NCBI GenBank assembly: GCA_043228905.1
Contig: JBHGNT010000003.1
Span: 7,564,001 to 7,628,000, forward strand
Direction: 5' to 3'
DNA: 64,000 nt
Source: Azolla caroliniana
Taxonomy: Eukaryota; Plantae; Polypodiophyta
Under the pieces are notes generated by a model, which made no database searches, was not told the DNA's origin, and saw only the letters and a list, made by a program, of their open reading frames with translations. Positions 1 to 62,599 of this stretch are shown piece after piece. Positions within the stretch are counted from its first letter, which is position 1, and every line of letters starts with the position of its first letter. Made by a program: the position numbers and the translations under genes.

Positions 1-1146
1 ATGCCTATTCCTGAGAGTCCATGGAAATCTATTTCATTGGACTTCATTACGGATCTACCACCTTCCAAGGGTTTTGATTCTATTCTCACGGTAGTAGATC
101 GTTTTACCAAGATGACACATTTTCTTCCCTGCACAAAGGCCATTACGAGCCAAGAGACAACCGAGTTACTCATGCGAGAGGTGTTTCGGCATCATGGTCT
201 TCCTAATGATATTATCAGTGATCGGGGTCCCCAGTTCATCTCAAAATTTTGGCGGCACATGTTCAAACTCTTACATACTTCTTGCAAACTCTCTTCCGGC
301 TACCATCCAGAAACTAACGGACAGAGTGAGCGCACCAACCAAACAGTAGAACAATATCTTCGTTGTTTTGTCAACTATCAACAAGATGATTGGGTTGATC
401 TATTACATTTGGCGGAATTTGCTTACAACAACTCAGAACATTCTTCTACTGGATATTCCCCATTTTTTGCAAACATTGGGTACCATCCTCGTTGGACTAT
501 GCTTGAACATCCCGAACTCCCGACAAACCCGGTTGCTGAAGATCGGCTCACCCGACTCCAAGAAGTTCAAGATATCCTTTTGCACCATTTATGTGATGCT
601 CAAAACACTCAAAAGAAGGTTGCTGACCGTCATCGACGTGATTCATCGACTACGTTTCAAGTGGGGGATCGAGTATGGCTTTTACAAGGTCGCATTAAAA
701 CCACCCGACCTTGCTACAAATTGGATTATCAACGTTTTGGCTCATATGTGATATCTGGTAAGATCAATGATGTGGCATTTCGCCTTGATCTTCCCCCTCA
801 TATGCATCTTCACCCGGTCTTCCATGTTTCACTTTTGGAGTTGTACACAACCAGCTCTATTCCAGGCCGTCGTACATCTCCCCCACCTCCAATCGAAGTT
901 TTGGATGGCTCCGAATATGAAGTTGTTGCCATTCTCGACTCCAAGATCGTTCGCAACAAACTGTATTATTTGGTTGACTGGTTAGGTTATACACCTAATG
1001 ATCGAACATGGGAACCTCTTGAGAATCTTGCTAATGCCTCTGAAATGGTTGCTGCATTTCACAACAAATATCCTCATAAACCAAGTCCGAAATCTTGTCT
1101 TCCGACTCGTGGAACTCGTCGTCGAAAAGGGGGGATAATGTCATGA
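1..1146 (+). mobile_element. Ty3/Gypsy chromovirus (Tcn1-like) pol 3' end: integrase core, GPY/F region and chromodomain; runs off the window start
   Basis: Uninterrupted ORF with WKSISLDFITDLP, VVDRFTKM, IISDRGPQF, YHPETNGQSERTNQ, HPVFHVSLL and a canonical chromodomain (EYEVVAILDSK...YLVDWLGY...TWEP). Purine tract AAAAGGGGGGA lies just before the LTR. Confidence 0.95.
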
Positions 1147-1159
1147 TGACATACATTTT

Positions 1160-1232
1160 GGCCTTACAAGGATTCGAGCCCAAGACGTCTTGGTCTATAT
1201 GTTAGACCTTTAACCATTATACCTACATATAT
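1160..1232 (-). ncRNA. tRNA-like Pol III cassette inside LTR U3 (degenerate, not a functional tRNA)
   Basis: Minus strand: A-box-like TAGGTATAATGG (from 1225), hairpin GGTCTA-ACATA-TAGACC, B-box-like GGCTCGAATCC (1180-1170). T8-to-T54 spacing is 47 nt. Confidence 0.6.
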
Positions 1233-1283
1233 GATGTATAATATAATAAATGTATTATTAGTTATTACAAGACATTTAGAGTG

Positions 1284-1400
1284 TTCTAGAACATTCTAGA
1301 GTGTTCTAGAACATTCTAGAGTATTCTAGAACATTCTAGGATATTCCATGATTATATTAAATATCATAAATATCTAAAATATTCTAGAACATTCTAGAAT
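1284..1400. promoter_or_regulatory. Heat shock element array in LTR U3
   Basis: TTC/GAA(GAG) alternate every 5 bp from 1284 to 1336 (20-bp unit x3). A second block TTCtaGAAcaTTCtaGAA at 1382-1399 sits just upstream of the TATA box. Confidence 0.7.
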
Positions 1401-1723
1401 ACTCCATAAGGACTTATAAATAGGTGTATATTCATTCATCACAACTCATTCGGTTCAACACCAGTTTGTAGCCCCTTAACCTACTCTTTGTAATCCTTGC
1501 TCTCTCATAATATAAACTCTCTTTCCATTTCTAGTGTTCTTTCTCTCTCTCTCTCTCTCCCTCTCCCTCTACCTTCTAATGTCATCTTATTTTTCTCTCT
1601 CCTATTCTCAAGTCACGACAGAATCATCAGAATAGGAAAACACGGTGAACATCTATACGTGTGGGTTAGCCAAGCCAAAGGAAAACATAATGGGCGATGA
1701 TTAGGCCATGCCAAATTTAGCAA

Positions 1724-2290: not shown

Positions 2291-2617
2291 AATGATCTAC
2301 GAGAATCTTCTCGGCCTAGAACATACGCGCACACGTGGGGGATGAACATATACGTACATGGATTTCTTCACTTCTTGAGGCATATGGCCCCCCTTGGAGA
2401 AAAACACGCAAAGCGTTAAGGAGCTCTTTTTTTTATCAGGAAGGGTGAGATAAAAAACAAGATAAGACCAAGGAAGAAAGATACAGACATACATACATGT
2501 ATGTATATTAATAACGTGGTTTTTAGGGCCAAAATGGCCTATCTCTCTCTCTCTCTCCGATTATCTATCTACATATAGAAGAAGAAGAAGAAAAACTAAG
2601 AGATTCATTCATTCATT

Positions 2618-10572: not shown

Positions 10573-13500
10573 TCATGATCCATCCTTCCTTCCTTCACCA
10601 ATTGAATTAAGCCTCGCACAAACATCTAGAACCTCTTCGATAGGAGCCCAATCTCCAATATTCCTCTCTGCAAACTGATAAGCTACCCCACCCTTTCCGG
10701 GCCTCAATACTAGAAGGCCCCCCTTGACCAATCCATTTCCATGCAAGTTATTGTGTATTCCGGATTCCCGAGCTCTTTTCAAGTTTCGGCGGGCCACTGA
10801 ATTGAAGAGCAAACCAGTGATATAGTTGTCAGTGGGAAGATTCCCCCCTCCCAACGCTCTAAAGAAATCGCAATTCTTGTCCACGACAATCATACCACCC
10901 CAAAACCGAGGCCAAAAGAAGCGAACCTGGCCAAAAAACACTACAAATTTAAGATCTTGTGTAAAAGAATGCCAGGATGTATTATGTAATTCTGTATGTT
11001 AGCCATAAGCATGGAAAACAAATAGAAAAGCACCACAAGCTACTAATTTTAAAAGAGCTAAATTAATATACGAAGACTCTATACAAGTCCCAAACCCTTT
11101 GTCATGTTTTTATTAAATTAAATAAACACAAATTAATTCACACTATTAGAACATCTAGCCACTCCCAAACATCTCACCTTCTTTAGGTGACAAAGAAGTA
11201 AGATTCCTAAACCAAATCAAAATCTCTTCTTCTATCCTAAAATTGCTAGAGTATTGTGATCATGCAAATATTAATTATCATTTCGTAACGATATTAGATC
11301 TTAATGGGATGGTTAAACAACCTCGGAATTAATGTGTTCGTGAAGAACGGCGACGAGTTGCACTCCGAGAGCATCGAAGATCGGTTTCCTCGAATAAAGT
11401 TTATGTGCTTCGGCTCGGCACATTACACATCTACAAGCATAAAACGATTACGATGTGAGAACAAAATTATGGATCGGAATTCAACCCAAAACCATACATT
11501 TGGACCCTAAACCTTAAAACTATGTTAACCCTAACGCTAAACTCAAATCTCACCCTGGCCTTCGGATGCAATAGATAATTGTGGCTTTGGTTGCCCAAAT
11601 ATCCGAGGCTTTCATGGGAGGGGGAGCCCTCACGTCGAACTTGCCCCAAGGGTCGACGCCTACACGATACTCGGGGGCGAGCTTTTGGACGGAAATCTTC
11701 TCCAACAAAGAGATGGAGATGATATCGTCGGCGACACGTGACGGTTTCAAAAGCCCGCACATTTTCGGGTTCGCAGGCCCGGCTGAAACGACACCCTTGA
11801 AGGTGGCCACCGCGAGGGGCATGTTGGGTCTCTCGTTCTCGGCATTCACGTGCTTCTTCTTCGGGCTTTGCTTCGTCTCACCAATCATTTGTTGGGCCTC
11901 CTCACCAATCAATTGTTGGGCTTCATCATTTCTCGTGGTCTTGCGATCGGGGGAAAGTGTGGGGGAAAGTGTGTCGGCATAAGTGTGATGGGCGGGTTCC
12001 ATGGAGGAGCTTAATGGAGAGGTCATGTAGATTTCTTCTTCGTGTGGTGGCCCCGAAACTGTAGATATTGTGGTGGCCGAGGTACGTTGGCGCCGGGCTG
12101 GGGCAGGCACGAGCGGGGTAAGTGTGGGCGGGACCACGAGCCCACATGGGATGGTCCTATCAATGAAGCGAGCCACGTGGCCCCTCTTCATGCCATAGCG
12201 GGAGCTCAGAATGGCCGGGCTCGTGGCCAGGAGCTCTGGTAAAGCTTTCCCCGAAGCCTCCAGCGTGTCTGCGTACTGCATTAGCGAGCGATCGTGGAGG
12301 TAGATTCTAATCTCCAATGCATCCTGTTTTTCAATGATTCGCCCCCCAAAAAAACAACAAAAATCAATAACAAGCATCGCGGTAAGGATTAGGGTACCAT
12401 ACCATAAGAAATTAGGGTATAGTAAGAATTGTTCTTAAATTTTTTTTTGCATATGAGGATTACAGTCCTTTCTTCGGATGATTAGGGGTTAAGTTCTGTT
12501 TATCCTGCCTAAGGTTAGGGTTAGATTCTAATCCCCAATGCATCCTGTTTTTTAATGACCCCAAAACAAAAATAAATACAGAAAAAAACAGCGGGGTAAG
12601 GGATTAGGGTACCGTACCGTAAGAAAAGAAATTAGGGTATTCGTAAGAATTGTTCTTAAAACATTTTGCATAGGATTAGAGTCACTATTTGTCTTGCCAA
12701 GGATGATTAGGGGGTTAATTTGTTTATCCTGCCTAAGGTTAGGGTTAGATTCTAATCTCCAATGCTTACTGTTTTAATGATCCAAAACTAAATAAAAGAA
12801 AAGCGTGGTAAGGATTAAGAAATTAGGGTATCGTAAGAATTGTTCATAGAATTTTGCATAGGATTAGAGTCACTATTTTTCTTGCCTCGGATTAGGGGTT
12901 ATTTGTTTATCCTGCCTTAAGCTTAGGGTTAGGACTAGAGTCACTATTTTTCTTGCCTCCTATTAGGGGTTATTTGTTAATCCTGCCTTAAGTTTAGGAT
13001 TAGGGTTAGAGTCACTATTTTCCTTGCCTCGGATTAGGGTTTACTCGTTTATCCTGCCTAAGCTTGGGATTAGGATTCACCTCCTGCCTAAGATTAGAGG
13101 GTTTAAGTTTTCCCTGCACAGAATTAGGATTTGGATTAGAGTTAGGCTGCCTGAGATTATAGCTAGGCTTCTTCTTCTTCTTTTTCTCTGCATCGGACTG
13201 GAAGGATGAGGGTACGAATTTCTTTTACATGCGATTTAGGGTTTAAATAGTCAGTCTTCAAAATCTGATTCAGATAAGATTAGGGTTTTCTATTCTCGAC
13301 GCACACACGAGGGGAGGGGGTCTAAATGAGAAAAAAAGCTTGTGTAGCGATAATTTAGGGTTAGGGTTAGGGTTTTGTTTGTTTTGTTTGGGATTCCTTA
13401 CCCGTTGTGGCTGGGTGAGCTTCTGAGCTTCCATGTCTTGGGAGGTCATCATCTTGAGGGTGGGGACATCATCCCATCCTTCGTGGAGGAGAGAGGGAAG

Positions 13501-13731: not shown

Positions 13732-14045
13732 ACCTGTTTGACCAGGTCTTTGGTTCAGGCCAGGTGGATCTTTGACCGTGTCTTGACCTTGACTCTATTT
13801 GACTCTCCACCGCCCCCCCCCCAACAAAAGAAGCCGCCCATTTCATTTCTTTTACTTTTTACTTCTTGCTTTTGTTTTCCAAACAAATTTACTTTTTCCT
13901 TTTCTTTTACCCTCCTCTCTCGCCTTTCTCTCTCTCTCTCTTTCTCGTAATTAACACTACGAGCACTCTGTCTTGGGTTCGAAACCCAATTTTCTCTCTT
14001 CTCTCTATTATATAGTCTTCATATATCTCTCTTAATTCACTAGAG

Positions 14046-14131
14046 GCCACTATGGAATGTAGGGGGTTGAACCCATATGACCACTTGGTCTCCAATGGGC
14101 AACCTTACCAACTGAGCTACATCCATCTGGG
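14046..14131 (-). mobile_element. Free-standing tRNA-derived (SINE-like) unit
   Basis: Minus strand: A-box TAGCTCAGTTGG (from 14119) and B-box GGTTCAACCCC. Aligns by eye to 62492-62573 with about 7 substitutions and 4 single-base gaps over about 86 nt. Abuts a (CT)n tract. Confidence 0.7.
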
Positions 14132-14132
14132 T

Positions 14133-14190
<58 letters not shown>

Positions 14191-15450
14191 GAATCGGTAA
14201 ATACCCCATTTTTGTTGTAAACAAATTGTCTCATGGGCCAATTTTGGTCTTAGAAGAAGTTAATATTTCTTTCTTTCTCTCTCTCTCTCTTTCTCTCTCT
14301 TGTCTCTCACCATCATGGGCGCAGGCCGCAGCCTGAAAGCATAGGCATAGTTTTGCACCAATTGGATGGATGGTTGGTCCCTCACCCAATTGGTATGCCT
14401 ACTCTGCCACATTGGAAAGGAGCTGCTTCCTACAAAATTGTCCTATCGGTTGTTATTGCCCAATGGATGCCCATACATTCTTTGTAGGCCAATATATCCA
14501 ATAAGACAATATCTTGGGGGTGTCCAAAGATTGAGACATTGTTTTAGAACATTTCAAGAAAAGGATATTGCAGGAAATGAGACCTAGACAAGCATATGAG
14601 AAGTGAAAGCATTGGGGGTTTGTAACACATCAATTGGATAACTAATAAAAAAATACATATTGGCAATTGATATCTCTTTGCTTGCCGCAAATTCTAGGCT
14701 TTGCAAAGGCTTGTGTTATGTTAAAATGCCGCACAACTTTTTTGAGTGTGTTTGACTCCTATTGTATATGGTTTGACAACACGTTTTGAAGTTGACATTG
14801 AACTTGGTTTTTGTTTGCGATACACTCCTTTTTTTTTCAAATGCCTTCAAGATGTTGAGATATATACATGTCAATGGTCTTATTTTAACAAAAAGTGAAG
14901 TGAAAACGTGTTACCTCTTTGCAAAACATTTCTAATGCTTGTGTGAGGATCCAAAAGCGCTTGAAAGAAGAGTCCATGATGGGTTTTAGCCTTTCCTTTT
15001 TCATGCAAATGAAAATAACAATATAAAACATGAATAGTTTCGGAAAAAGCATGGAGAGAGACACTAACTCTCCTTGACCCACTAAACATACCACCCAACC
15101 TCCCTTTGTCCAACTTCCAATATATCTCATGTTGTGAGTCACGGGTGTCTTCTCCATGTGTCAAGAAGACTTAGAAGCCCATGTCTCACAGGGCCTTCTC
15201 TACCCATCGAGAAGGCCCTCGCCTCAATCTGTCGAGGTGATGTGTCGTGGTTTTGATCACAGAACCCCTCAACACAAAGGATGTGTTACAATGGGCACCT
15301 TCTCTACCCGTTGAGAAAGGCCCTCACCTCAATCCGTTGAGGTGGTGTGTTGTGGTTTTGATCATGGAACCCCTCAACACATCAGATATGTTACAATGGG
15401 TGCCTTCTCTACCCGTCGAAAAAGGTCCCCACCTCAATTTGTCGAGCTAG

Positions 15451-16209
15451 TGTTGTGGTGCCTTTCGGCACCATATCGTTGCGTGAGTTGGGTGGGAACC
15501 GCTGGGGTTTTGGACTAGGAGGAAGAAGAATTTGAGATGAATCTAGTTAAGAATATATTGTAAGAAATATATAGGAAACTTGTGAATCCCACAAGAATAG
15601 TTTGTTAGTTTTATTAATATTTAAAACCTAATTGAACTTTGGAATAGCTTAGAATCAATAGGAATAGATTGGAAAAGAGAGATCAAAAACCTTGTGAATC
15701 CCACGAGTATTATATTAATCAAGATTTAGACCCTCAAATCAACAACAAATCTTTACAATTTGCTTCCCCATCCTTATATAGTGATGGGAGAGTCTAAGTT
15801 TACCACACGCAAGCATCATGCCTTTTCTAGCTCTAGTGTACATGCACACTACATGTCCATGATTAACTTTCCCCATCATGCTTTTCCTTTAACTCAAGTG
15901 TTCATGCACACTACACGTGCATGATTAACTTTTCTATCATACTTTTTCATTTAACTCAAGTGTGTAAGCATGAATAACTTTATCTATCATGCTTATCTAG
16001 AATATTTACATGGGATAAAGTTTAGTATAACTTTAGTATTTATAATGTGCTAGTGCAATGGTAATGCTTAAAATTATTAACATGGAGGTACAGGGTTCAA
16101 ATGTTGCCTTATGCATGTAATTATTTTAGTATTTTCTCCTATTTCTTTATACTTAGTCAATCGGGTTCTCCACACATATTTTATGTAGTGTACAAAGTAT
16201 ACGACAACA
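15451..16209 (-). mobile_element. Solo LTR-like insertion
   Basis: TGTTGTGGT...ACGACAACA (8/9 inverted repeat), splitting the third 105-bp repeat unit. Minus-strand TATATAAG at about 15773-15780. No clean TSD. Confidence 0.6.
16044..16115 (+). ncRNA. tRNA-like Pol III cassette inside LTR U3 (degenerate)
   Basis: A-box TAGTGCAATGG at 16051, then GAGGTACAGGGTTCAAAT (variable loop plus B box, T54 at 16096). Spacing 45 nt; TTTT at about 16124. Confidence 0.6.
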
Positions 16210-17200
16210 ATGTGTTGTGGTTCCAATAACGAAACTCCTTAACACATCGGATGTGTTACAACCCAAATGTATTCCACTGTTAAACCAACAAAGCAAGACA
16301 AAGACTCTCCTCTCCCCTCCCATGAATCTCATGAAACATTCGAAATTAATAGTGAGAAAATGAACCTTCCTCCTAACCAAAAACATTGTAAATGAGGGTC
16401 AGGTTCATACGTATACGTTTTCTATAGCCCTCCATCTGAAAATATTTCTAGCTAAAATTGACCCATGAGAAAGGAGAACCTACCGCCTAACCAGACCAGA
16501 CGTTGTACGAAATCGAGGGCCAAGTTCATACCTTCTATTGCGCTCCATTTCAAAATACTTCCAAAGTCTGTCACTCACCATGGGCCCTTCCTCTCCCTCT
16601 CGAAGCTCTCAGTCAACTTGTTTGTAGTGCCTAACATCTCGAAAAACCAAGAGATCTTACAGAACACACACACGCACACACACACGTATGTGTGTCGTGG
16701 GGCCCGAGCTCACACGCGCGCGCGCTCACATCATTTAGCACCGTGATAGGCAGTTGCCACTTGTCCGCAGCTCATGCCGCCACGTGTCACACAGGCGACG
16801 ATGCCACCTGGCGGAGGTGACACGTCAGTCATCTCACGGCAAACCTTCCTTGCTGGTCTTTCTTTTTCTTCATCTTCTCCTTCTTCTCCTTCTTCTTCTT
16901 CTTCTTCTTTGTCGTTGTCTTCCTTCTTAAAATCGGCGAGAGCTCTGCAGGTGAGAGAAATGATGGCGGAAGGTCCATCCAACAGAAGCAGAGCAGACGA
17001 ACCAGCATTGCCAGAAGAAGAAGACGAAGACGAAGACGAAGACGAAGAAGAAGAAGAAGAAGAAGAAGAAGAAAGAGAAGAAAGGAGGGAATTGTTCTTC
17101 ATCTGCATCGCTCTCTTCTCATCCATCGTTCCTTCCCCTTCTGCTTGCTGCTGTATGCACTAACTGTTCAACCTCCTCTGCGGTAGAGGTAGAGAGGGCC

Positions 17201-20200
17201 ATGTTCCCATTATTTCGAAACGTTTGGTAAGTTTTAAAAAAGTGCGCCTTTTTGAATTTTTTTTTTGCTTTGTTTTTTGCATGCAGATGATAACGCTTTA
17301 TTTAGGGTTTATCTGTGTAAGTATTTATGTGGGTTAGTCTTTGTAAGAGAAATAGATAGATAGATAGATTATATTATCCTCTTCGGAGAGAGATAGTTTC
17401 TTCTCAATAATTTTCTGTTCTTTGGGGTGAATCAGGCAAATAGAGAAGATCTCAGGGCCTTGGGAGGATGCCATCATCTCTGTCTTCCTGGTGTTGTTCG
17501 GAGGTCTTATGTCAGGTCTCACACTGGGACTCATGTCCCTAGACCTTGTAGAGCTCGAGGTTCTTCAAAGAAGTGGTAGCCCAAGAGAACAAAAACAAGC
17601 ATGTAAGAAGATTATTGTCTTAAAAAATCTGTTTTTCTTTGTCTTAGGGTAAAAATTATCTCCATGGGTTCATTCTTTCTAGAGGTTCGTAAAAGACCCC
17701 TGTTTAATGCATCCTTTCAACTGAGGAATCATTGTTTATTTGTTTAGAACAAGGCTTCCAATAAGTTGAATGACACTTGGATTGACACTTTGCATGTGGT
17801 CGTACACACACACACACACACGTTACACACGCACCCTAAAACTGTGACTTAGGCAATGTGGACTTTAGTTGAATGAACATTGAAAAATGGATAGGAAATA
17901 GGGTTTCATCAATGCACTGTTCTAGCAAATGTGGTAGTGGTAGCCTTGAGGATTTTGTACATTAATAGCTGAGGATATAAAAGCATATTATCTGATCGGA
18001 AAAACTAGCTCATCAATATTATAGCATAAGGAAAAGAAATATTTCTTGAAACAGGTAGAAATCGTTTTATTACATGGACTTATCGATTGAGTGCAATTGA
18101 AAGGAATCACTGGAATCATACATATAGTGCACATTAAAAAATAAATCGACAATGTATTCATTACCGTCAGCATTTTACGTCCAGACCTGATTTGCAAGGT
18201 GCATGGGCAACATTTCATAAAAAAAAGGGATATAAGGGAAGTTCTAGAACTTCTAGAATTTTCTTTCTACCTCGTAATGATAGTTTGGTGGTACTGTCCC
18301 ATGACAAAATTATTCATTCCTTACATTCCTTTGACATCATTTTTCCTCAAGTGAACATTCTACGAAACCCATACATAACTACTTTTAGATGTCTGTTTAC
18401 TCAATTATTTGGCAAACTACTGGTCTAGAATCAAGGCATAAAGGATTATGCTAGTAGTTGGTTTACTTTAGTTCTCTACCGAGACAAAGAATCACTTCTC
18501 AGCTGCATACTGATTCAAGATATTGTGCTCTTTGTATTTTATTATTCTGTTGGAGTTTGAGCTAATCAGACATATAGAGTGCTCTTCACCAGAATCATTT
18601 TCATTCAAATTTAGACTTGGTCTTAATTTTCTTAATCGTTTTTTGCAGCATCAGTTCTACCAGTTGTTAGGAAGCAACATCAACTTCTAGTAACACTTGT
18701 ACTATGTAATGCTATTGCAATGGAGGTACACACTTGTGGTGTTCTTCTTGTTACATTTCATCAGAATAGTACGAATTAGGTGCAAGTTCAAGAGCTAGGA
18801 TTAACATTTTACAGGCATTGCCAGTCCTTTTGGACAACATGTTTAGCACTTTTGTTGCTGTTATTCTTTCGGTCACTTTTGTGCTGGCATTTGGTGAGGT
18901 AATCCTACTTGAATTCTCTCACTTAAAGTTGAAGCTATTTTGCGTTAAGTATCATTTCATGAATTTGGTGTTTGCAGATAATTCCACAAGCGATTTGTTC
19001 AAGGAATGGGCTGGCTATTGGAGCGTACTTAGGTTGGCTAGTTCGGATATTGATGGTTATATGCTTTCCGGTAGCTTATCCGGTTGGAAAGGTGAATCAC
19101 CCTCTGACAAGTTGCTAACTCTTTTCTTCTTTTCCAGCCTAAGTGGAATATAGCATCTACAATCTTTCTGGGTGTTGCACTTACTGCAATATTTTCTTGT
19201 AAATCTCTAATATTTTGACCAAGGAAGTGAACTGGGCATCTAATCCTGGTCTATTGAATATGGTCTTATGGTTTGTATATCTTTGATTGGGTAGTCCAAA
19301 TCAGGTTGGTTATGTTCCCAGTGTTTGCAACTCTAGCACACCTGGCACCACATAGTATATATCTTTAATCTCAAATCTATGCATTGACGTGTGAACTGTG
19401 GAATCAATTTAAAAGGCTGTTTGTTTCAGTTGCTTGATTTCTTACTTGGGCGTAATCAATCAGAGTTGTTCAGGAGGTGTCAACTGAAGGCCTTTGTATC
19501 GATCCATGGACAGGAGGTAAGATTAGGATAATTAAGAAAATATGTGATAATTAAGAATAAGATTGCAAAAATCTAAATACTACTTTTAAAATATAAAAAA
19601 TGTCACTTACTCAGAAGAGGAAGAGGGTGGACACACATAGCACAGGTTACTATAGATTATGTCACACTAGACATAGATCCTGAAGTTTCCCCAAATATAC
19701 TAGTCCTCAATTGATATACCATTAGATTTTTGAAGGATCCGCGAGTGTTCGTCTATACTGGAGTACTGTTGTCTCTTTACTGGAGATTCTTTTAAACATG
19801 ATGATAACCAACATTTTCTCGCATTCATTTAAGAAATAATGTTATATTGATATAAAGGTCCTACAGGCATATTGAACCATCGTGGGTGCTCATAACTGAG
19901 AGGAATCAGCTTTGAAAGAAGAAATAACTTTTTGTTGGGCTTCTAGAAACATCCAAAGTTTGGATACTCTGGTTATCTTCATACAAACTATGAAATTAAG
20001 TGCATTATAATTATTGATACACTACCCAAATAGAAGAGGATACGTAAAGGAAGAAGGTATAGAGGATGAAAAATGAAAGGAATGTCATATTGATCTCTGT
20101 TAAAAAAGTTGACCTATTAACGGAAATTAATCTGGTATAAGACCAAAAGATACAACAATTTGGTATAGTACCAAGGTTACGCAAAAATCTAGAGAGAGTG

Positions 20201-43826: not shown

Positions 43827-44029
43827 CCCCCCTCAGTCTCTCTCTCTCTCTCCTGCAGCAACACTTCACTCTTCTTCTTCATTCGCCATTCGCCATTCGC
43901 CATTCGCCATTCTTCTTCTTCTTCAGACAGACAGAGACAGAAAAGACTGTCTGTGGTGTCCAAATCTTCTTCCTTCCATTCAAATTCTTCATTTCTCACT
44001 CCCTGATCCCCTTCCTCACACACCCGGCT

Positions 44030-45265
44030 ATGGCTTCTTCATCCCTTCTCCCCACAGCAGTTCACACACAGCTCGCAAATCCAGCTATGATTTCTTCTTC
44101 TTCTTCTTCTTCTTCAGCCAACAGACAGTCTTCCGATTCAGCTATACCTTCTTCTTCTTCTTCTTCTTCTTCTTCCTTCTCTTCTTTCACTGTCCGTTCT
44201 GGCCCCCTCTATTACATTCTTTTCGTCCTCCTCCTTGCTCTCTCATCCTTCCCGGCTGCTGTGCTAGCCTCAGAATCTTCTGTATCATTCCAAGTCCGTG
44301 TTCCTTCGTCGCCTTCATCGACTCCATCGCCATCATCTTCAAGCTCCTTTCGCTTTGCGAAAGCAGCTTACCAAATCGTCACTCCCACTGTGGACGTCCG
44401 ATACCACAATGGGCCTGTTCTAACGCCGAAGATCAAAGTCTTCCTGATCTGGTATGGGAGATGGCAGCCATCCCAGCAATCCATCATCAGAGATTTCTTG
44501 AACTCCATCGCCAAGGATTCCGCTTCCTCCTCACCCCCTCCTTCTCCTTCAGTTAGCGAATGGTGGAGCACCGTCCAGCTCTACACAGACCAAACGGGAG
44601 CACACATCTCAGATTCTTTGAAAATCGTGGGGGAGGCAACAGATCTCTATTCCCATGGCAAGATCTTAACAAGAATGACGACGCAGGAAGTGATCAAGAA
44701 TTCTCTGAAGCCATTCAATGGAACCTTACCAGTGGCTCCCCGAGGAGGTATCTACATGGTTCTCACCTCCGAAGATGTAGTTCAACAAGATTTCTGCAGT
44801 GCAGCTTGCGGCTTCCATTACTTCACATATTCTTCCATTGTCGGATTCACCTTACCATACGCGTGGATCGGGAACTCTGCAAAACAATGTCCTGAGACCT
44901 GTGCATATCCGTTCGCTGTTCCATTTTACATGGCGGAGAGTATAAAGCCGATGAAATCCCCGAATGGCAACATAGGAGTGGACGGGATGATCAGTGTGAT
45001 AGGACACGAACTTGCAGAGATGTCATCGAATCCATTGATCAATGCCTGGTTCGCTGGTACAGATCCCATGGCTCCTACAGAGATTGCGGATCTGTGCGAA
45101 GGTATGTATGGACCTGGCGCAGGTGGTGGTTATGCTGGTACAGTCTCTCAAGATCAGTCAGGTGCGAGCTTCAATGTTAATGGCGTGAATGGCCGTCGAT
45201 TTCTTATTCAGTGGCTATGGAATAACGAAATCAAAGCTTGCCGTGGCCCCAACGCGTCTGCTTAA
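44030..45265 (+). CDS. EXORDIUM-like / Phi-1 family secreted protein (EXL3/5/7-like), single exon
   Basis: 411-aa ORF with a hydrophobic signal segment and motifs YHNGPVL, LIWYGRW, WWSTVQLYTDQTGA, FCSAACGFHYFT, YAWIGNS..QCP..CAYPF, PNG.IGVDGMISVIGHELAE. The start could be 44030 or the next Met. Confidence 0.93.
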   Translation: MASSSLLPTAVHTQLANPAMISSSSSSSSANRQSSDSAIPSSSSSSSSSFSSFTVRSGPLYYILFVLLLALSSFPAAVLASESSVSFQVRVPSSPSSTPSPSSSSSFRFAKAAYQIVTPTVDVRYHNGPVLTPKIKVFLIWYGRWQPSQQSIIRDFLNSIAKDSASSSPPPSPSVSEWWSTVQLYTDQTGAHISDSLKIVGEATDLYSHGKILTRMTTQEVIKNSLKPFNGTLPVAPRGGIYMVLTSEDVVQQDFCSAACGFHYFTYSSIVGFTLPYAWIGNSAKQCPETCAYPFAVPFYMAESIKPMKSPNGNIGVDGMISVIGHELAEMSSNPLINAWFAGTDPMAPTEIADLCEGMYGPGAGGGYAGTVSQDQSGASFNVNGVNGRRFLIQWLWNNEIKACRGPNASA

Positions 45266-46262: not shown

Positions 46263-46304
<42 letters not shown>

Positions 46305-47714: not shown

Positions 47715-49013
47715 TGTTGGGAATATGGGATTGAATTGGGATGATTTAAACTTCAAGCACAATTAACACTAGATGAAACCACAAGACGAAAATGAGAGTA
47801 CATAAAAAATTTTAACGTGGAAAACCCCAAATAGGAAAAAAACACGGGAACCATAGGTTCCAAACAACTTCACTATATTTTTTAGTACAATGGAATACGA
47901 CCTCACTAGAGGAATTTATCTACCTCAAGGCAATGACCTTGGTTACAACCTTCACCTAATCCGGTGGATAGAATAACAAAGGTTACAAACTGTGTACGAC
48001 CTCTCTAGGTTTTGACTAGAGGAACGTACAAACCTCAAGGCAACAGCCTTGGCTACACAATAGTGAGTACAAATGAGTACTGACTCTCTAGGTTTTGACT
48101 AGAGAAAATGTCCTAGCCTCAAGGCAACATCCTTGGCTATAATCTTCACCCGATTGGGTGGATAATACAACAATAAGCACAAGAAATGTGCTACCCTTAA
48201 GGCAACATCCTTGGCTACAATCTTCACCCGATTGGGTGGATAATACAACAATAAGCACAAGGAATGTGCTAGCCTCAAGGCAACAACCTTGGCTACAATC
48301 TTCACCCGATTGGGTGGATAATACAACATAAACACAAGAAATGTGCTAGCCTCAAGGCAACAACCTTGGCTACAATCTTCACCCGATTGGGTGGATAATA
48401 CAACAATAAGCACAAGGAATGTGCTAGCCTCAAGGCAACAACCTTGGCTACAATCGTCACCCGATTGGGTGGATAATACAACAATAAGCACAAGAAATGT
48501 GCTAGCCTCAAGGCAACAACCTTGGCTACAATCGTCACCCGATTGGGTGGATAATACAACAATAAGCACAAGAAATGTGCTAGCCTCAAGCCAACAACCT
48601 TGGCTACAATTGTCACCCGATTGGGTGGATAAACCAACAAGCAATAATCAAGATTATAATTCCTCACCCAACTAGGTGGATAGAAATACTAAGAAAAACG
48701 GAAATAAGAAAAACATAAAACGAAGAAACCTGATACAAGTAGATAGGATAGGTGTTGTTCAATTGTGGTTCTCTGACAACACGAACAATCCCTCGTAGGT
48801 CTCTATCTCTACATTGGTAGAACGCTCTTCCTCATGCTCACTCTTTTGTTTTCTATTTTTCCTTTCTCTCTCTCGTTTTTTCTGTTTTCTCTTTGTTTTC
48901 TGATTTGCTATATATTCTCAGAAAAACCCGCTCTCACTCTGTTTCCTCCTCCTTTTATGTTTTTCTCCTTGTTGTCCAACGTCTATATACCTATGTTCAC
49001 ACATACACACACA

Positions 49014-49063
<50 letters not shown>

Positions 49064-49859: not shown

Positions 49860-52330
49860 TTATGCGAGGGAAATCAGATCATCGATGGCAATGGCAAGCA
49901 CAATATTGTTCTCCATTGTGCAAAAGACATAGGCAATGCAACTTTTGGTATAAGATTTTTGCCAAAGTAATTGCAAATAGACTTCAAAAGGTATTGTTGT
50001 CTGTGGTCCATCCAATGCAATATGGATTTATTGAGGGAAGGGACATCCTGCATAATATTATAAATGTGCAGATGGCAGTGGATTATGCAAAGGAAGGGAC
50101 ATCCAATGCAATATGGGTTTATTGAGGGAAGGGACATCCTGCATAATATTTTAAATGTGCAGATGGCAGTGGATTATGCAAAGGAAGGGACATCTAATGC
50201 AATATGGCTTTATTGAGGGAAGGGACATCCTGCATAATATTTTAAATGTGCAGATGGCAGTGGATTATGCAAAGGAATCCAAACAACAAATTGTAATGAT
50301 ACAACTAGACATCGAGAAGGCATATGATCATGTACGTTGGTCTTTTATTACTCAAGTTATGTCTCATATGGGTTTTAGAGAACGGATGTCTCGAATACCT
50401 TTGTTGTTAGGGTTGGGTGCAGTGTCACGCATTATGCTAAAGGGTGGAGTTACTAAGGTGATACCATTAAAAAGATCATAGACAAGGATGCCCATTGAGT
50501 CCATTATTATTTGCAATTGCGACACACCCGATTTTGGTGAAGATGCCTGAGTTGGCAACATCTGGGGAAATAGTGGGATTAGCTCTACCATAAGGGAAAC
50601 AATTAATAACTCAAGCATTGCCTGATGATTTATTTTTATTTCTCAAAGCGGTACCTGATAATATAGCTAAAGCCATGGAGGTGTGGAAGGTATTCACATT
50701 GGCGTCAGGATTACATATAAATATGCAGAAGTCGATGCTTATTAGATGCACTGACAGTGATCTTGTTGATCTTGGATGGGGTGGCCAAATATTAGATCAA
50801 GAAAATGTATGTCGGCACTTAGGTTATCCTATTGGTGTTGATATCTCATCGTCGCAAAGTTTGAATTGGATATTAGGTACCATTTTGGACAAATTTATGT
50901 ATTGGAAGTCCCAAGCATGGCCATTTAGTACTCATCTCAAAGTGGTACAAGCTATAATGATTCCAATGATTTCTTATTTTTAGCCATTACTATCGTTGAC
51001 AAAGAAATCACTTGATCATTTAGCTCGTTCACTTAAATATACACTATGGAAGAAAGAAACAAAACTTGGTATGAGTTGGATATCATGGGACAATATTTGT
51101 ACCCCAAAAAGGTTAGGGGGGAGTTGCATTACTAAATTTAGAAGATCATATGGTGGCTCGAAGATTCAATCTTTTGAAAGGTATGTGCATAGGTACCCAA
51201 GCTTGGGTAGGACTAATTAGTTATTTTGTGGAAAAGGTTGGTATATATCATGGGAAAACGAGAATTACAGCTTCGCGGTGGCATGTTGTTAATAGTACCC
51301 GAGAATTTAAATGTTTTGAATCTATTATGGTTCAACAATTGGTGCTTTCTTGGCAGTGATGTTTGAGTGGAAGTCTCTTGAGTGTAGAAAAGATTTAAAT
51401 TCCTTGGCAACAGAGGTGTCGGTAGCTTCAAGGATATTACACTAGGATGGAAAGGAAAGCCTAAATTCACAGTTCAATCGAATGACAAGGTTAGGCTTTG
51501 TAATTGTGGAAGATGGTATATTAGAGTCATGTATGAAAATAATGGTGTTTTGGACAATTAGACATAAGTTTCATGTGCCACGTGGATATGGGCATATTTG
51601 GCAATCAATATTGGCATTACCTAGATTAGTTTTCCCGATTCCAGAGTTGGTGGTCAAGGACCCATGGAAAGATTGGTCATTTGGTATTGGGAAATCGATT
51701 TTAATGGTGCACACTAATGATGTTTTTATCATAAGTTGGTTGAAGATAGATCTTGGTTAGCAAATAAGGTTTTGGATACGTGATGTATTACTTGACATGT
51801 AAAGTGGTGGTGTAGAGTTTTAGATGCGGGATGGCAGTCTCATCTTTCATTTCGTGCAAAGATGTTTCTTTGGCATGCTTTAGTTGGTGCATTGCCTTTG
51901 TCGATCGCCTTAAAATGAAGACATATTTCGAGTGGGTTTAGGGTTTTTTTTGTATGGTGGTTGAAGACGATGCCAGACATAGGTTCATTACCTGTCCAGT
52001 TGCTAAAGCCATTTGGGTGCTTATATCACAAATTTGGGCATCGATAACTTCAAATATTTTGTCAACCTTATAACTGGGTTTTTATCGATAAGGATAAAGC
52101 TATGCCTGCACCATCATATAAGGTTGTGTTTGACTACCTCAGAAATTGGGGGATGTGGTTTAATTGGACCGAGAAATGGGTTCTTATTTGATGGACTTCA
52201 TGGGGTAACACAACTTTGTAGGATAAAAGGGAAGTTGATTTGGCAATTTTCACAACTATGTTATATGGGGATGTTGTCCCGAGAGGAGATAGACTTAAGT
52301 CATCTAGTTTTATAACACTAGAGAGGGTTT
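49860..52330 (+). mobile_element. 5'-truncated degenerate L1-type LINE (RT and zf-RVT)
   Basis: YKIFAKVIANRL, QYGFIEGR.ILHNI, LDIEKAYDHV.W, RQGCPLSPLLF (frameshifted), PDDL, HLGYPIG, WISWDNICTPKRLGG. Multiple stops and frameshifts. Confidence 0.88.
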
Positions 52331-52865: not shown

Positions 52866-55800
52866 TCACGCCCATATAGCCAATGCCGACATGGATGCCG
52901 CCCCAAGAAAAAGGGACATGTAGGAAAGAATTTGTAAAGCGCGAGTGCAACTTAAGCGTTTGTTCAAAAAATCGGCAGCGATGAGATCTACCAAGGCCAT
53001 GTAGATAAGAATTCCAGCTGATACGGAATCGAATACTCCTTCAACAATAAGGGCCCCGGGACTGCTTGCATTAAATCTTGATGCGATACAAGCCCCGACA
53101 GCAATACCGAAAGGTGTGGTTAATGTAAAAAAAACAGTCATCACCATTGTTGATAATGACTTAAACCCAGCCTACACAAAGGAATACAAGCACACATATG
53201 CACAAGGAATTAGACATAATCGAAAGAAATATCAGTGTTCAATCGAATCATTGATGCTAACAACCATTAAAAATGTGGCCTATATTATTATATATTAAAT
53301 GGTTCGTGCAGTTCAAGAAGTAGGCAGAATGTAAGTACTCACGTACCTTAGAGAGGCAACCTCCAAGAGCAAAGCCCTCGAAAAATTGATGAAATGAGAG
53401 GGCTGCAAGAAGCGGCCTTATTGTACATGGGCTTTCTGACACCCCCAAGGACATGCCTATGATGATAGAATGTGTCACAATTCCAAGCTCCAATACCTAC
53501 AACCCGAAATGCGTCGACAATTAAAAGATAAACAAAGAAGACCAGGAGGTAAGAGAGAAATCATTTAAATACTTACGATCTCTCTTTCTCACATATGAAT
53601 AGCTCAAATTTGAACTAATTACCATTCTTTAATCACTAACAAGCAACACTAACTGGTTTTTGAAGGGCAACATAGCACTAATATTTTGGGTTTGTATCAG
53701 GATAGTGTACAAAAATATTTTTAGTACCAGAACATCCTTACATTGTATTGATTTAGTACTTCAGAGGGGCATCAAGGTGATTTTCAGGAGCTCAGGGATA
53801 TATCCGCTAGATATCCAATAACATAGGTGTGTATTGGATTGTGTAAGACATCTAACACATAGTCACATTTTGGGACAGGGATCAGGACAAAAATGGCAAG
53901 GATCCATTGAGACTACATCTAAAACAAGCAAGTGGAAACACATGCTAAGAGAAAAAATATACAGTAACTGCTTAAAAAGAGAGATTCACCTGGGAAACCA
54001 CAACATGTCTACTATGAGCGGCTATATCTTCAGATGACGCAGATTCTTGAATTACCAGCTTATGTTGATGTTCCAAAGTCTCACCATCTATATCCAAGAA
54101 ATGATGAAACACGAGGAGATGGCCATGAATACTATGTGATGCAGCATGTGTAAACCAGAGGACTTGCTACTTTTCAAGGATTTGGGGAAATGTTCGGCTA
54201 ATTTTTATGACCATGGTTTCCAGAATGAAATTTTGACAATAAAGAAGCAATAAAAAGTAATATTTGCTCAACCATATTATTGCCCAACTTCATATACTTT
54301 TGTGGGTGTTTTCATGACCTATAGATTCATTCAAACCATTTATGTTTAGTAAATCCATTATGTTCCTCATTTTCCCCTCCTGAAATCAATACATCCCAAC
54401 ATTCATGTGAATACACAGTAAATACATCTATGAATGTAGCCCAACTGAGTTGTCATACATACCAGAAGGAAGGATATGAGAATGGGAGGCAGCATGCGCG
54501 TGAATGCCCACTACATGCATGTTCTTAGTATCCTTGTCATTGACAACAGCATCACTAGGAGTTGTTCCAATGTCTTGCTTTGTTTCTTCCCGTTCTTTTG
54601 CGTGCTTCTTTTCATAATACTCTGTACCTAACACATCCACCATAAGGGTGCCCAGAGCAGCCAACATGGCGATACAACCCGAGAAAGGGAAATCTTGCCA
54701 TGGGAAGTCAGGTAAACAACTATCGGTTAATGCAGCCGTAGCATTGGGAAGTATGTGGACGAACCCGGTGGCTAAAATTACACCTGCGGCAAATGCCTTT
54801 ACTATTGTAAAGAATGGTCCATCGGTCTTCAAAACCATTAGTTTTTTCCCCAGTAGTGGTAATGCTATCCCTAATGCACCCGCGAATAGAATACTTAAAA
54901 TAGCGATCAACTTTAAGTGTAGTGCTGTGGTCTCATCTCGGCAGTCGGAATCGCTGTCAGTAGTACAGCTTGCTTGAAGCGCCATTGCCTTTGATTTCCA
55001 AGCTGTAAGAAACCACAATCAATCATCGATTCTCTCCCTCTTTTCTTTATATTTAGATTTTTTATTGCAATGGGCTTACCCTAATGGAAACTATTAGGTT
55101 ACCAACACAAGTCTATGGATTAAGGTTACTCTACTCCATCATGTTTGCAACATTTCCCATGCCCACAATTGTCTTGCATCTTGACCTAGGCCCTACATAG
55201 CCCACAGTGAATTCACTAATAAAATCCATCATGTATTAACAAAGTCTTATGTATTAAGATTATGCCATCATGTGTTATCAAAGTCTATGTATGTAATGGA
55301 GGTTAGAGCATCATATGTTTATCAAAAGTCTAATGCATTAAAATTAGACTGTGAAGTCACAGTTTGTGATATATTGATCTTCATATCATTGTCTTTAGAC
55401 TACATCGATTTCCTAATTACTAAGCTGGATAATATCAAAACATATGCTGAGTGTGTAAAGACAGCATTTTATCAAGGTCACTACGACATATCCTGATCAA
55501 ACCAAATTGTAGAAGAAATTGAGCACAACGAGATGTACGCTAGGCTCATTGAGCAAAGCATCATCATGATCTATCACATGTAAAGAATAATTTGGGAACT
55601 TTCATCGGAGAATGCCTTCCTATTTTCATAATATGTTGACATATAAGATGTTCAAATAATTTATCATTTGCTGGCATACATATATGGCCACTTTTATTTG
55701 AATTTTCCATTTGTGAAAATCACTCTCTATATACAATGCCACTCGAGTGGCAATGCACCAACAACGTTATCATCATCATTTCTCACATGATTCATAATTA

Positions 55801-59900: not shown

Positions 59901-62215
59901 ATATCCGTAAACCTTTATTGGTACATTAGGAGTGCCTCTCTTTGTAGTGACAAATCATAGACCTCAATGGAACTATCAACTTCCATGGACCCTTTCTTGA
60001 TATAAAAACAACATGTTAATGTACCTTATTAAGGTTCAACATCCATGTATAAGTTGTTTTTGTATGTACAGGTTTAGGTGTACATACATTGTCTTTTATT
60101 CTACGTTGTAAGCCTACGGGCAGATAACTTTTACTTGTACTTTTTCGATGTTTTTAATACTATTGAAGGAAATCTTTCAAGGAAAAAAAAAATTGTAAGT
60201 CGATATTTTTGAGTAAATTAATATTTTTTTCATTAACCATTTATCATAATGTAGAGATATTATCTCTTACATTATAGCTCTGTATTGCTAGATGATGTGC
60301 AAAAGCATGAGGATTTGTGTGGGTTGGTGGAACCATTGGGGTTTTGGACGGGGAGATATTATCTCTTACATTATAGCTCTCTATTGCTAGAGAATAGGTA
60401 CATGATCTAAGATGTCTCATAGAAGGGGAAAGAGGTGTTAGGAAAGAGAATATGTAGGTCAAGATCTTGGCTTATGAAGTTTCAAAACCTCTAGTGTTAT
60501 ACATACTAGAAACTAGATGCTTAACCCAATCGAGAAAGGAAGGATATAAAGTAGACATAGTTAGTGGTTGTAGTCTAGATAGAATTTTTTGTTAGATTTT
60601 TCTTTAGTATACTTGGGTCCCTTACCTCAATTAATGAGTTGCTCTTATATAGGCAATAATGGCTAAACACATATCACCACTTGGCACACATGACTTAACC
60701 TTTTTTCAAGTACTTATAATGCATTTCATGCTTATGTTACAAGGTTTGAGTCTTATTCTCTCAATAAGGTTACACTACATTACACACACACACACACACA
60801 CACACACAACCTGCTTGACAATCGCTACATGTGTGAAAACCAATTACTACACCAATTGTGTGGAGGCAAAGGCAACACAACATCCTTAGTGGTATGATTC
60901 CTCTTTGAACAAATATGGTATTGATCCAGATGTTTGATCGAAGCTATTGATCAATCATGCCATTAAGGACCTCGCCGACTGTTATGGCATGCTGCAAAAG
61001 TGCAATACTACGCAAACAAATAGACTAGCCAAGTTGACACACAAGAAATTTCACAAAACATCCCAAACAAGATCGTCAACAAAGGTCATCAATTGGGATC
61101 AAAAGATTCAATCCACATTCTAGGGATTGTGGAAAAATTATAAGGTGATTGATCATTTAGGCCATTTCGTGCAAATGTTCAATTGTGAATCTTTTCAAAT
61201 CCAAGGGAAGGAACGAGTCAATAAAGACATATCCCAACACAAACACAAACTTTAGATGCTCCACCTTGCCAAAGATTGACTCAACAACATGTTGCACTTG
61301 GTTATCTTATAATAGAAATGCAAGGCTTATGCCAATTGTTGTCACTATCATTGTGAATTTCTCTTCAGAAAAACAAACCGGTTCACATATTTTAGATCCA
61401 AAATCCTCTCATTCTTAGAAATCTCTTAATATGGTGTATAAGCTTATGTTGGATTGTGGTTGTTATGATTAGAGCAACTAATGATATTATTGAAAATAAA
61501 GAAATAAATAATTGAGGATGTTGTTCCTCCTATTCATCCTCGAGCAAAGGATTTGGGATGATCCATCCTAAACCCCAATGGCATCCCATACCACCATCTA
61601 TGGAGATGCATCTTGACTTAGAGTAGATGTAGATGATAGGTGCCTTGAAACAAGTGATCTGCCAAACTGCCAAAGTCTCATATTCTCATCAAGGAGATAA
61701 TAAAATGAGATAGCTAGTACCATATTTATGTCTTAAGGTGAACACCCCTTGACTGCCACATAGGTTTCTATGTGTTTCAGACCATGCTAGGTTGCCTCAA
61801 ATCCTAGGATAATTATCCCTCCTCATTTATGATAAACTATCCTTCCCATTTAGATCTAAAGTTATGTCCATAACATAATCTCCCTCTTCAACTCTTGCAA
61901 TGAGATTTGAGAAAAAATTGTTCTGAGAATTTCATCTCTCTCCCAAGTGGTGTCATCTAAAATTTTATCCATCCATTTAATTTTGAATTCTCTATATTGT
62001 TTGGAACATAAATTTTTAGTTTTTATAACAAGAATCTATCTAGTTCATGAGGCTTATAAGGTAAATCCTCAAGAATCACAAATTCTTCAATGTTAACCGT
62101 GTTATCGTGAGAACCCAAGACTTCTTTTAAACAACTTACATGAAACATGGGGTGAACTTTGACACCTTGTGGAAGAGCAAGCTTAGGGGAAGATGAACCT
62201 ATGCGTCTAAGAATA

Positions 62216-62599
62216 TGTCACAAACAAGTAGAATAGAGCAGAACCGAGATGAGACCAAATACTAAGAGAGAGATGAGACAAGAGAAAGAGAACAAGAACT
62301 CAACTAATGCTTCAATAATTGGTGTTATTCACCTTGATTGGAATCAAGGTGCACCCAAGTATTTATACAAGAAGGTGCAGGTATGCACACAAGCTAAGAA
62401 TATTCTAGAGAATGCATGAGAATGCATACAAATAAGGGAACTTCTAGTGTTCAATATACAATGCATCAAGTTGAATTTTATAAAAGGATGCCCCGATTGA
62501 TGTAGCTCAGTTGGTAAGGTTGCCCAATGGAGACAAGTAGTTTATGGGTTCAACCCCTACATTCTACAATGGCATATACATGTCACAGACGCTTTGACA
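62216..62599 (-). mobile_element. Solo LTR (384 bp) inserted into the older integrase
   Basis: TGTCACAAAC...GCTTTGACA ends with an exact TSD GAATA (62211-62215, 62600-62604). Removing it restores GPFTILRRIGS. Minus-strand TATAAAT at about 62361-62367. Confidence 0.92.
62492..62573 (+). ncRNA. tRNA-like Pol III cassette inside the solo LTR U3
   Basis: A-box TAGCTCAGTTGG at 62503 and B-box GGTTCAACCCC with T54 at 62549 (spacing 46). Partial acceptor-stem pairing GATG/CATT. Confidence 0.72.

What the first reader, a model, noticed from the sequence alone, without database searches (positions are those of the whole stretch)
1139..62599. Three different LTR families carry an antisense tRNA-like Pol III cassette at the U3 end
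Seen: LTRs 1139-1620 (+), 15451-16209 (-) and 62216-62599 (-) do not align with each other by eye. Each has an A box and B box with tRNA-gene spacing (T8-T54 of 47, 45 and 46 nt), about 20-100 bp from the U3 terminus, upstream of the LTR TATA and on the strand opposite LTR transcription. Established: A/B boxes recruit TFIIIC, tDNAs can act as chromatin barriers, and Cassandra TRIMs carry a 5S rRNA Pol III promoter in their LTRs. Inference: the shared position and orientation suggest a maintained LTR module, a tRNA-based analogue of Cassandra. It could insulate the Pol II promoter from silencing or produce an outward-facing antisense RNA. I do not know a description of this, but could not check the literature.
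Basis: partly seen in the sequence, partly recalled or inferred. Interest (0 to 1): 0.82.

Follow-up and report, generated by a model that had tools for sequence, protein, structure and literature searches.

The report
Antisense tRNA-like promoter in fern LTRs
A whole branch of protein-coding jumping genes related to one in this fern DNA keeps a backwards-facing, decayed tRNA gene at the very start of its end repeats, with the promoter letters preserved and the tRNA shape lost, so it is likely a docking site for the tRNA-transcription machinery that may shield or regulate the element's own promoter.

Summary
LTR1 is the 3' LTR of a Tcn1-type chromovirus in a fern. Among fetched relatives with a readable LTR start, an antisense A/B-box cassette in the first 130 nt scores <=4 mismatches in 11 of 13 close elements (sense strand 0 of 13) and 1 of 48 distant ones; all cassette-bearing rows fall in one clade. 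Across 9 families the ten tRNA-invariant positions are kept (8.4/9 vs 6.1/9, p 5e-5), spacing stays 45-46 nt, and the cloverleaf is lost. LTR3 is a true solo LTR, but its cassette is the head of a far more abundant non-LTR, SINE-like repeat; LTR2's cassette is flanked by a possible 10-bp target duplication and its LTR ends are unproven. A tRNA analogue of Cassandra is already published (Helenus), but it is non-autonomous, sense-strand and near the LTR 3' end. An antisense, U3-terminal, clade-wide cassette in coding elements was not found in 10 literature searches. No binding or expression data. New variant of a known kind.

The parts
1..1146 (+). 3' end of pol of a Tcn1-type chromovirus (Ty3/Gypsy): integrase core, Tf2-1-like SH3, chromodomain; frame open for 381 aa to the window edge
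   Evidence: PF00665, PF24626, PF00385, all above Pfam cut-offs
1124..1135 (+). polypurine tract, 3 nt before the LTR
1139..1620 (+). LTR1, 3' LTR, TG..CA with short terminal inverted repeat
   Evidence: 76% identical over 484 columns to the LTR of L003
1162..1238 (-). antisense tRNA-like cassette of LTR1: A-like box 1214-1224, B box 1170-1180; no cloverleaf
   Evidence: family-level by bridging contigs
1284..1400 (+). array of heat-shock-element-like units (5 three-unit matches; 7 in the whole window) between cassette and TATA
   Evidence: identity as HSE is from recalled consensus, untested
1415..1421 (+). TATA box of LTR1
1448..1463 (+). predicted self-priming segment at the start of R (in relatives complementary to the PBS)
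   Evidence: complement of the PBS with 1-2 mismatches in 13 nt in 4 of 6 loci examined
13930..14135 (-). non-LTR, GA-microsatellite-flanked, SINE-like repeat with a perfect A box (14108-14119) and B box (14063-14073), and a second B-like box on the opposite strand near 13975
   Evidence: (72% over 268 nt to L021:218-449)
15451..16209 (-). LTR2, probable solo or 5' LTR in a 105-bp tandem array; ends and superfamily unproven
16032..16134 (+). LTR2 cassette (A 16051-16061, B 16094-16104) with a 10-nt direct repeat at 16032 and 16125 (possible TSD)
   Evidence: (held-out hit of model R1, E 4.8e-6)
62216..62599 (-). LTR3, solo LTR with 5-bp TSD (62211-62215, 62600-62604), TATA near 62367
   Evidence: empty site in runs X3 and X7
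62489..62575 (+). LTR3 cassette, perfect A (62503-62514) and B (62547-62557) boxes; same family as the 14-kb repeat head

Best explanation
A clade of coding, self-priming Tcn1-type LTR retrotransposons carries an inherited antisense tRNA-like A/B-box cassette at the outer end of U3, and it is likely kept as a DNA binding site for TFIIIC / RNA polymerase III that would act as a boundary upstream of the element's polymerase II promoter. Shown: presence, strand, position, single clade, preferential conservation of promoter positions, loss of the cloverleaf, self-priming PBS (so it is not the primer). Inferred: one old capture of a tRNA or SINE head; purifying selection on the boxes; antisense orientation is favoured because it points transcription outward, away from the TATA box, and keeps a tRNA-like fold out of the genomic RNA. 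Predicted, untested: TFIIIC occupancy and barrier activity against methylation or nucleosome spread from flanking DNA. LTR3 and probably LTR2 are separate, younger captures of SINE-like heads at a comparable place; whether these are selected is open.
For: Antisense cassette <=4 mismatches in 11 of 13 loci at >=57% protein identity, 0 of 13 on the sense strand, 1 of 48 below 57%; 39 of 100 loci had no callable LTR start or under 95 nt. 14 cassette rows lie in one clade of 17 (SH-aLRT 94, quick tree), with no cassette-free row inside. In an unanchored alignment of 9 families the 10 tRNA-invariant positions average 8.4/9 against 6.1/9 for the other 45 and 5.2/9 for the anticodon arm, permutation p 5e-5. 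Spacing is 45-46 in 9 of 9 while B-box-to-LTR-end distance ranges 15-48 nt. Acceptor and anticodon stems pair 40% of cells, chance level about 41%; RNAalifold finds no consensus structure. No conserved T-run terminator: inside the LTR in 4 of 9, in the PPT complement in 2, none within 80 nt beyond the end in 3, which fits a binding site better than a defined RNA. In 4 of 4 runs laid, depth runs on from the chromodomain end through the cassette, and contigs bridge PPT and cassette or start at the LTR start with unrelated flank.
Against: No binding, chromatin or RNA data. The A box is degenerate: T replaces G at tRNA position 10 in 4 of 9 families and many copies of the LTR1 family also lack it; 2 of 13 close loci score 5 mismatches. 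The five bases of the variable loop (7-9 of 9) and exact tRNA spacing are conserved too, and D and T stems pair 64% and 71%, more than a TFIIIC site is known to need (recalled), hinting at an RNA-level constraint. Related Tcn1-type elements replicate without it (48 distant loci; Selaginella SM-Tcn1 and the first 400 nt of the moss RLG1 transcript by eye). All cassette-bearing loci come from one accession series and may be one host genus. Clade support is 94 on a quick tree.
Confidence: 0.55

Rival explanations
1. The cassette is a working antisense Pol III gene and the RNA is what matters: a short tRNA-elbow-like transcript complementary to U3 (and, from the 3' LTR, to the PPT) that would tune the element's RNA, seed small RNAs, or spawn SINE-like offspring.
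For: Exact tRNA spacing in 9 of 9 families, conserved variable-loop bases, partial D and T stems; one D-stem pair is kept in 9 of 9 with three pair types. A SINE-like family shares its head with LTR3. Foamy viruses make Pol III small RNAs from U3 (PMC3993851, passages).
Against: No common terminator; covariation score not above shuffles (31 of 500 as high) and no consensus fold; folding z below -2 in only 2 of 9 families.
Confidence: 0.2
2. An old SINE insertion was fixed in the clade's ancestor and is carried neutrally, or a few of its bases are kept for an unrelated reason (a Pol II factor site, integrase end recognition, RNA packaging on the sense strand).
For: Single clade fits a single insertion; the A box is degenerate; the segment lies next to the conserved LTR end; relatives lack it.
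Against: The conserved positions are the ones predicted beforehand from tRNA promoters (p 5e-5); the CG of the B box survives in 7 of 9 families; the DNA between cassette and LTR end varies freely in length; apart from the near relative L003, LTR1 aligns to the other families only in short stretches.
Confidence: 0.15
3. The three window cassettes are independent SINE insertions in a genome rich in tRNA-derived repeats, and the shared position and strand are coincidence. This probably holds in part for LTR2 and LTR3 (about even odds) but not for LTR1.
For: LTR3 cassette depth 3,000-115,000 against 180-1,650 in adjoining LTR sequence; most contigs leave at its edges into GA/A-rich sequence on one side and the 14-kb repeat's tail on the other. 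LTR2 cassette has a flanking 10-nt repeat (121 of 20,000 shuffles; 6 of 425 AT-rich window positions). Model R1 scores LTR3 at only 9 bits, E 0.11.
Against: Contigs 13-18% divergent from the window bridge the LTR3 body and the cassette in 4 of 4 runs, so other LTR3-like copies carry it; no shared word of 5 nt flanks the LTR3 cassette; no flanking repeat above 6 nt in the 9 Tcn1 families; R1, built without LTR2, finds its cassette at E 4.8e-6.
Confidence: 0.1

Closest known systems
Helenus (TRIMp3; Kojima 2024, PMC10886601; read: parts 1-4 of 6 of the text, supplement part 1 of 11 and one passage)
   Same: tRNA-like sequence inside LTRs, boxes A and B conserved, mostly not a functional tRNA, not the primer, proposed to come from a SINE insertion; one plant family (Selaginella).
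   Different: Helenus is non-coding and 311-1263 bp. In the fungal consensus LTRs read and in Helenus-1_SMo and three wasp LTRs the cassette is on the sense strand in the 3' part of the LTR. Here it is antisense, at the U3 end, in TATA-bearing LTRs of coding chromoviruses. The paper expects autonomous partners to use Pol II and not to share long LTR stretches with TRIMp3. It also notes that 'not a few' Repbase LTRs contain tRNA-like parts but follows up only TRIMs under 1000 bp, so similar cases may sit undescribed in Repbase.
Cassandra TRIM (as described in PMC10886601)
   Same: Pol III internal promoter carried in both LTRs and conserved over long times.
   Different: 5S-derived, sense, the element's own promoter, non-coding.
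Tcn1 clade of chromoviruses (PMC2864245, passages and file S3; PMC6317226, passages)
   Same: Chromodomain integrase, non-seed plant host, self-priming instead of a tRNA PBS; the PBS/R pairing seen here matches SM-Tcn1.
   Different: Neither paper's passages mention a tRNA-like U3 piece; the SM-Tcn1 LTR has tandem repeats there instead (by eye).
Foamy virus U3 Pol III miRNA cassettes (PMC3993851, passages)
   Same: An autonomous LTR element carrying Pol III A/B-box units in U3.
   Different: Animal retrovirus, hairpin miRNA precursors with terminators, expression shown; here a tRNA-shaped spacing, no conserved hairpin or terminator, opposite strand to the element.
tRNA-derived SINEs (general knowledge)
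   Same: Degenerate tRNA head with boxes kept and stems lost; the LTR3 and 14-kb cassettes look like this.
   Different: The Tcn1 cassette has no tail or flanking duplication and moves with the LTR.

Membership tests
Helenus / TRIMp3 | tRNA-like sequence with A and B boxes inside the LTR | tested here: met
Helenus / TRIMp3 | non-coding, short (about 0.3-1.3 kb) element | tested here: not met
   LTR1 follows an open integrase-chromodomain frame; relatives carry gag after the PBS. Not testable for solo LTR2 and LTR3.
Helenus / TRIMp3 | cassette on the element's sense strand, able to drive its genomic RNA | tested here: not met
   antisense in 11-13 of 13, sense 0 of 13; Helenus sense by eye in the part of Data S1 read
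Helenus / TRIMp3 | tRNA-complementary PBS | tested here: not met
   PBS complementary to the element's own R start in 4 of 6 loci examined
Cassandra | 5S rRNA-derived LTR segment | tested here: not met
   no 5S hit in Rfam scan at E <= 10
Tcn1 chromovirus (LTR1) | Ty3/Gypsy integrase followed by chromodomain | tested here: met
Tcn1 chromovirus (LTR1) | self-priming PBS | tested here: met
   in close relatives L005, L006, L009, L015; the window copy lacks its 5' end
Tcn1 chromovirus (LTR1) | RT-RH-INT phylogeny with REXdb Tcn1 references | not tested
   reference FASTA of PMC6317226 too large to read; tree has no named references
functional tRNA gene | cloverleaf with paired acceptor and anticodon stems | tested here: not met
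   (ARAGORN 0 genes in 17 loci)
SINE insertion (LTR3, LTR2 cassettes) | same head found outside LTRs at high copy | tested here: met
SINE insertion (LTR3, LTR2 cassettes) | target-site duplication around the cassette | tested here: inconclusive
   none for LTR3; 10-nt repeat for LTR2 in AT-rich DNA where the 8-nt core occurs three times locally
TFIIIC-bound barrier (tDNA/ETC type) | TFIIIC occupancy and barrier activity | not testable with these tools
   needs ChIP and reporter assays

The most novel reading that the evidence does not exclude
Coding LTR retrotransposons of ferns have repeatedly domesticated tRNA/SINE heads as a third LTR module: an outward-facing Pol III promoter at the U3 edge that recruits TFIIIC to insulate the Pol II promoter, inherited across a whole chromovirus clade and refreshed by new captures from (or feeding) an abundant SINE-like family, so that every insertion plants a tDNA-like barrier in the genome.
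Probability: 0.3. Interest if true: 0.85.

Novelty: new variant of a known kind. Interest (0 to 1): 0.62.

Why it matters
Known small-RNA-derived LTR pieces (Cassandra, Helenus, Ajax) replace the promoter of short non-coding elements. A cassette that faces away from the element and is conserved in coding elements needs another explanation. If it binds TFIIIC, it would be an anti-silencing or boundary device built into a transposon's own promoter, would scatter many Pol III/TFIIIC sites through fern genomes, and would give a direct test of whether tDNA-like barriers work in plants. It also warns that tRNA/SINE annotation in ferns can be confounded by LTRs.

Tried and rejected
No whole genome is held, so no genome-wide census. 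Run search listed no RNA holder among 20 holders: no evidence on expression. A single-protein scan of viral contigs found no relative; the alignment scan found 2 distant loci without a callable LTR. Functional tRNA: rejected. Cassette as reverse-transcription primer: rejected, the clade self-primes. Chance: rejected for the Tcn1 clade. A recollection that the main moss Tcn1 family has the cassette was not borne out: the first 400 nt of the RLG1 transcript show none by eye and the cell is cut there. L077, outside the clade, has a B-like and variable-loop-like piece by eye but scores 5 mismatches and E 0.064: left open. LTR2 as a Helitron (terminal hairpin 15456-15473 followed by CTAG) was considered; the target bases do not fit cleanly. 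Earlier-findings look-ups by sequence and one by words returned nothing. Literature: 10 searches found no report of an antisense U3 tRNA-like cassette in coding plant LTR elements; Repbase, subscription papers, five .DOC supplements of PMC2864245 and two large files of PMC6317226 could not be seen and may bear on novelty. The careful tree did not finish; the quick tree is reported.
Full report
Setting. The window is gene-rich plant DNA (37% GC). The best named near-full-length hits of a zinc-transporter exon are ferns (Ceratopteris, Adiantum, 58-60% identity; higher bit scores only for multi-domain angiosperm records covering about two thirds of the query), so the host is most likely a fern. 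No whole genome is held.

Observation. A scan for A box plus B box at tRNA spacing gives four sites with at most two mismatches: 1224(-), 14119(-), 16051(+), 62503(+), against 0.4 per shuffled window. None is called a tRNA by ARAGORN or Rfam. Each of the three lies upstream of and opposite to a TATA box. The LTRs share no alignable sequence beyond CT repeats and short words. The LTR2 cassette is further in (105-159 nt) than stated.

LTR1 is a coding chromovirus LTR. It follows an open 381-aa frame with integrase, SH3 and chromodomain and a polypurine tract. Contigs of four runs laid on 1030-1690 show depth continuing from the chromodomain end through the cassette, contigs that bridge PPT and cassette, and contigs that begin at the LTR start with unrelated flank; no variant at 10% or more is listed in the B box, four are listed in the spacer, and the window copy is atypical at three A-box positions (40 of 56 variant rows were shown).

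The cassette is a clade character. An alignment of 41 integrase-end/chromodomain sequences fetched 100 loci. In 61 an LTR start with at least 95 nt could be called; 39 could not be tested. Antisense A+B with at most 4 mismatches in the first 130 nt: 11 of 13 loci at 57% protein identity or more (the other two score 5 in the same register), 1 of 48 below; sense strand 0 of 13. The 13 include near-copies and reduce to about 8 families beside the window's. On a quick maximum-likelihood tree of 98 rows (of 101 candidates) all 14 rows that I labelled cassette-bearing, including the two 5-mismatch rows, form one clade of 17 with three untestable rows and no cassette-free row (SH-aLRT 94). A sequence-only model built from 9 families recovers the held-out clade members L003, L004, L005, L010, L012 and L018 at E <= 3.4e-4 and no U3-end hit below E 0.05 in the distant loci; it also hits one unrelated place in L028. 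All cassette-bearing loci belong to one accession series, so host breadth may be a single genus. By eye the Selaginella SM-Tcn1 LTR and the first 400 nt of the moss RLG1 transcript lack it.

What is conserved. In an unanchored alignment of the 9 families, the ten positions invariant in tRNAs (numbering recalled) average 8.4 of 9 identical, the other 45 positions 6.1, the anticodon arm 5.2; permutation p 5e-5. Pairwise identity: B box 0.75, A box 0.61, anticodon part 0.33, acceptor parts 0.31-0.38 (box-anchored, so somewhat inflated). Spacing is 45-46 throughout while the distance to the LTR end varies 15-48 nt. Acceptor and anticodon stems pair at chance level (40%), D and T stems 64% and 71%; the covariation score is not above shuffles, although the count of pairs changed on both sides is (9 of 500; a measure that divergence alone can raise); no consensus fold is predicted. 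There is no common terminator. The variable-loop bases are as conserved as the boxes, which I cannot explain by a minimal B box. The clade primes reverse transcription from its own 5' end (PBS complementary to R start in 4 of 6 loci, including one with compensating changes; expected for Tcn1, PMC6317226), so the cassette is not the primer.

LTR3 and LTR2 are different stories. LTR3 is a true solo LTR (5-bp TSD; empty site in 2 of 4 runs). Its cassette is 87% identical to the 14-kb copy, which sits in a GA-flanked repeat also present in L021. Summed depth over the cassette is about 100 times that of the adjoining LTR sequence, and most contigs leave at its edges, so it is the head of an abundant non-LTR, SINE-like family; yet diverged contigs bridge LTR3 body and cassette in all four runs, so it is in other LTR3-like copies too. 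Depth here is summed contig depth, not a copy number. The direction of exchange is unknown. LTR2 lacks TSD and PPT, its right end resembles the tandem unit it sits in, and its cassette is flanked by a 10-nt repeat (p about 0.006-0.014), which suggests an insertion; on the other hand model R1 finds it at E 4.8e-6. No reads were laid on LTR2 (cap reached).

Mechanism. Most likely (0.55) the Tcn1 cassette is kept as a DNA-level type 2 Pol III promoter that recruits TFIIIC and faces outward, acting as a boundary for the Pol II promoter. Steps shown: inheritance, strand, selective retention of promoter positions, loss of tRNA fold. Steps inferred: origin from a tRNA/SINE head, selection, advantage of the antisense strand. 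Steps untested: binding, transcription, barrier. Rivals: a functional antisense RNA (0.2), a relic or unrelated constraint (0.15), independent SINE insertions throughout (0.1 overall, about even odds for LTR2 and LTR3).

Comparison with the known. A tRNA analogue of Cassandra is published as Helenus (PMC10886601), but it is non-coding, and sense and 3'-located in the consensus sequences I read; three defining features fail here, so this is not Helenus. Foamy viruses carry Pol III units in U3 (PMC3993851), a precedent for function in an autonomous element. tRNA-gene targeting through TFIIIC/TFIIIB is known for TRE5-A (PMC3159450, abstract); nothing here shows such targeting. PMC13570524 (passages) cites only Cassandra, Helenus and Ajax for such LTR motifs, and PMC6786969 (passages) does not mention them. 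Ten searches found no description of this arrangement, with the limits given under Tried and rejected.

Verdict. Observation partly confirmed; interpretation partly supported; new variant of a known kind; interest 0.62.

Noticed in passing
window 13930-14135; L021:280-540: GA-microsatellite-flanked, high-copy SINE-like repeat with tRNA-like cassettes on both strands facing each other (three box sets in L021, one sharing its A box with the L001/L011 LTR cassettes); tandem heads seen as 'goes back' joints.
   Followed up: partly
window 1284-1400; L008, L009, L010, L003, L018: Arrays of heat-shock-element-like units in U3 between cassette and TATA (5 of the window's 7 three-unit matches); absent from L005, L006, L007, L011, L015. 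Suggests heat-inducible families.
   Followed up: partly
window 1448-1463; L005, L006, L009, L015: The self-priming segment at the start of R resembles a sense-strand B box (1 mismatch in most), but changes with the PBS in L009; SM-Tcn1 shows the same pairing although PMC2864245 reported no priming signal.
   Followed up: partly
window 15212-15450 and 16210-16261: 105-bp tandem unit with several internal hairpins, interrupted by LTR2; LTR2 ends in a perfect 7-bp hairpin (15456-15473) that could be a PBS remnant or a Helitron-like end.
   Followed up: partly
L028:11603-11668 (-): Degenerate cassette matching model R1 (E 1.1e-5) in a record from another collection series, not at a recognisable LTR start; similar pieces may occur in other non-seed plant repeats.
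   Followed up: partly
L077:2740-2830: Tcn1-type LTR outside the clade with a B-like box and a short internal duplication; possible eroded cassette.
   Followed up: partly
window 62321-62396: The TATA/start region of LTR3 has far higher contig depth than the rest of LTR3, so its core promoter is shared with an abundant LTR family: LTR3 looks modular.
   Followed up: no
window 48028-48717, 50009-50281, 29165-29500, 12276-13071, 20289-20753: Tandem arrays (78, 91, 168, 71/221, 94 bp); the 91-bp one lies in a decayed LINE reverse-transcriptase frame (49.8-51.4 kb), another LINE remnant at 28.1-31 kb.
   Followed up: no
window 43823-45265 (+); 52866-55018 (-); 18770-22612 (+): Host genes: an EXORDIUM-like ORF, a ZIP zinc transporter, and a CBS/DUF21-like gene (names for the first and last from recall of the translations).
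   Followed up: partly
L083-L100: Eukaryotic chromovirus fragments inside bacterial and archaeal genome records: probable contamination of those assemblies.
   Followed up: no
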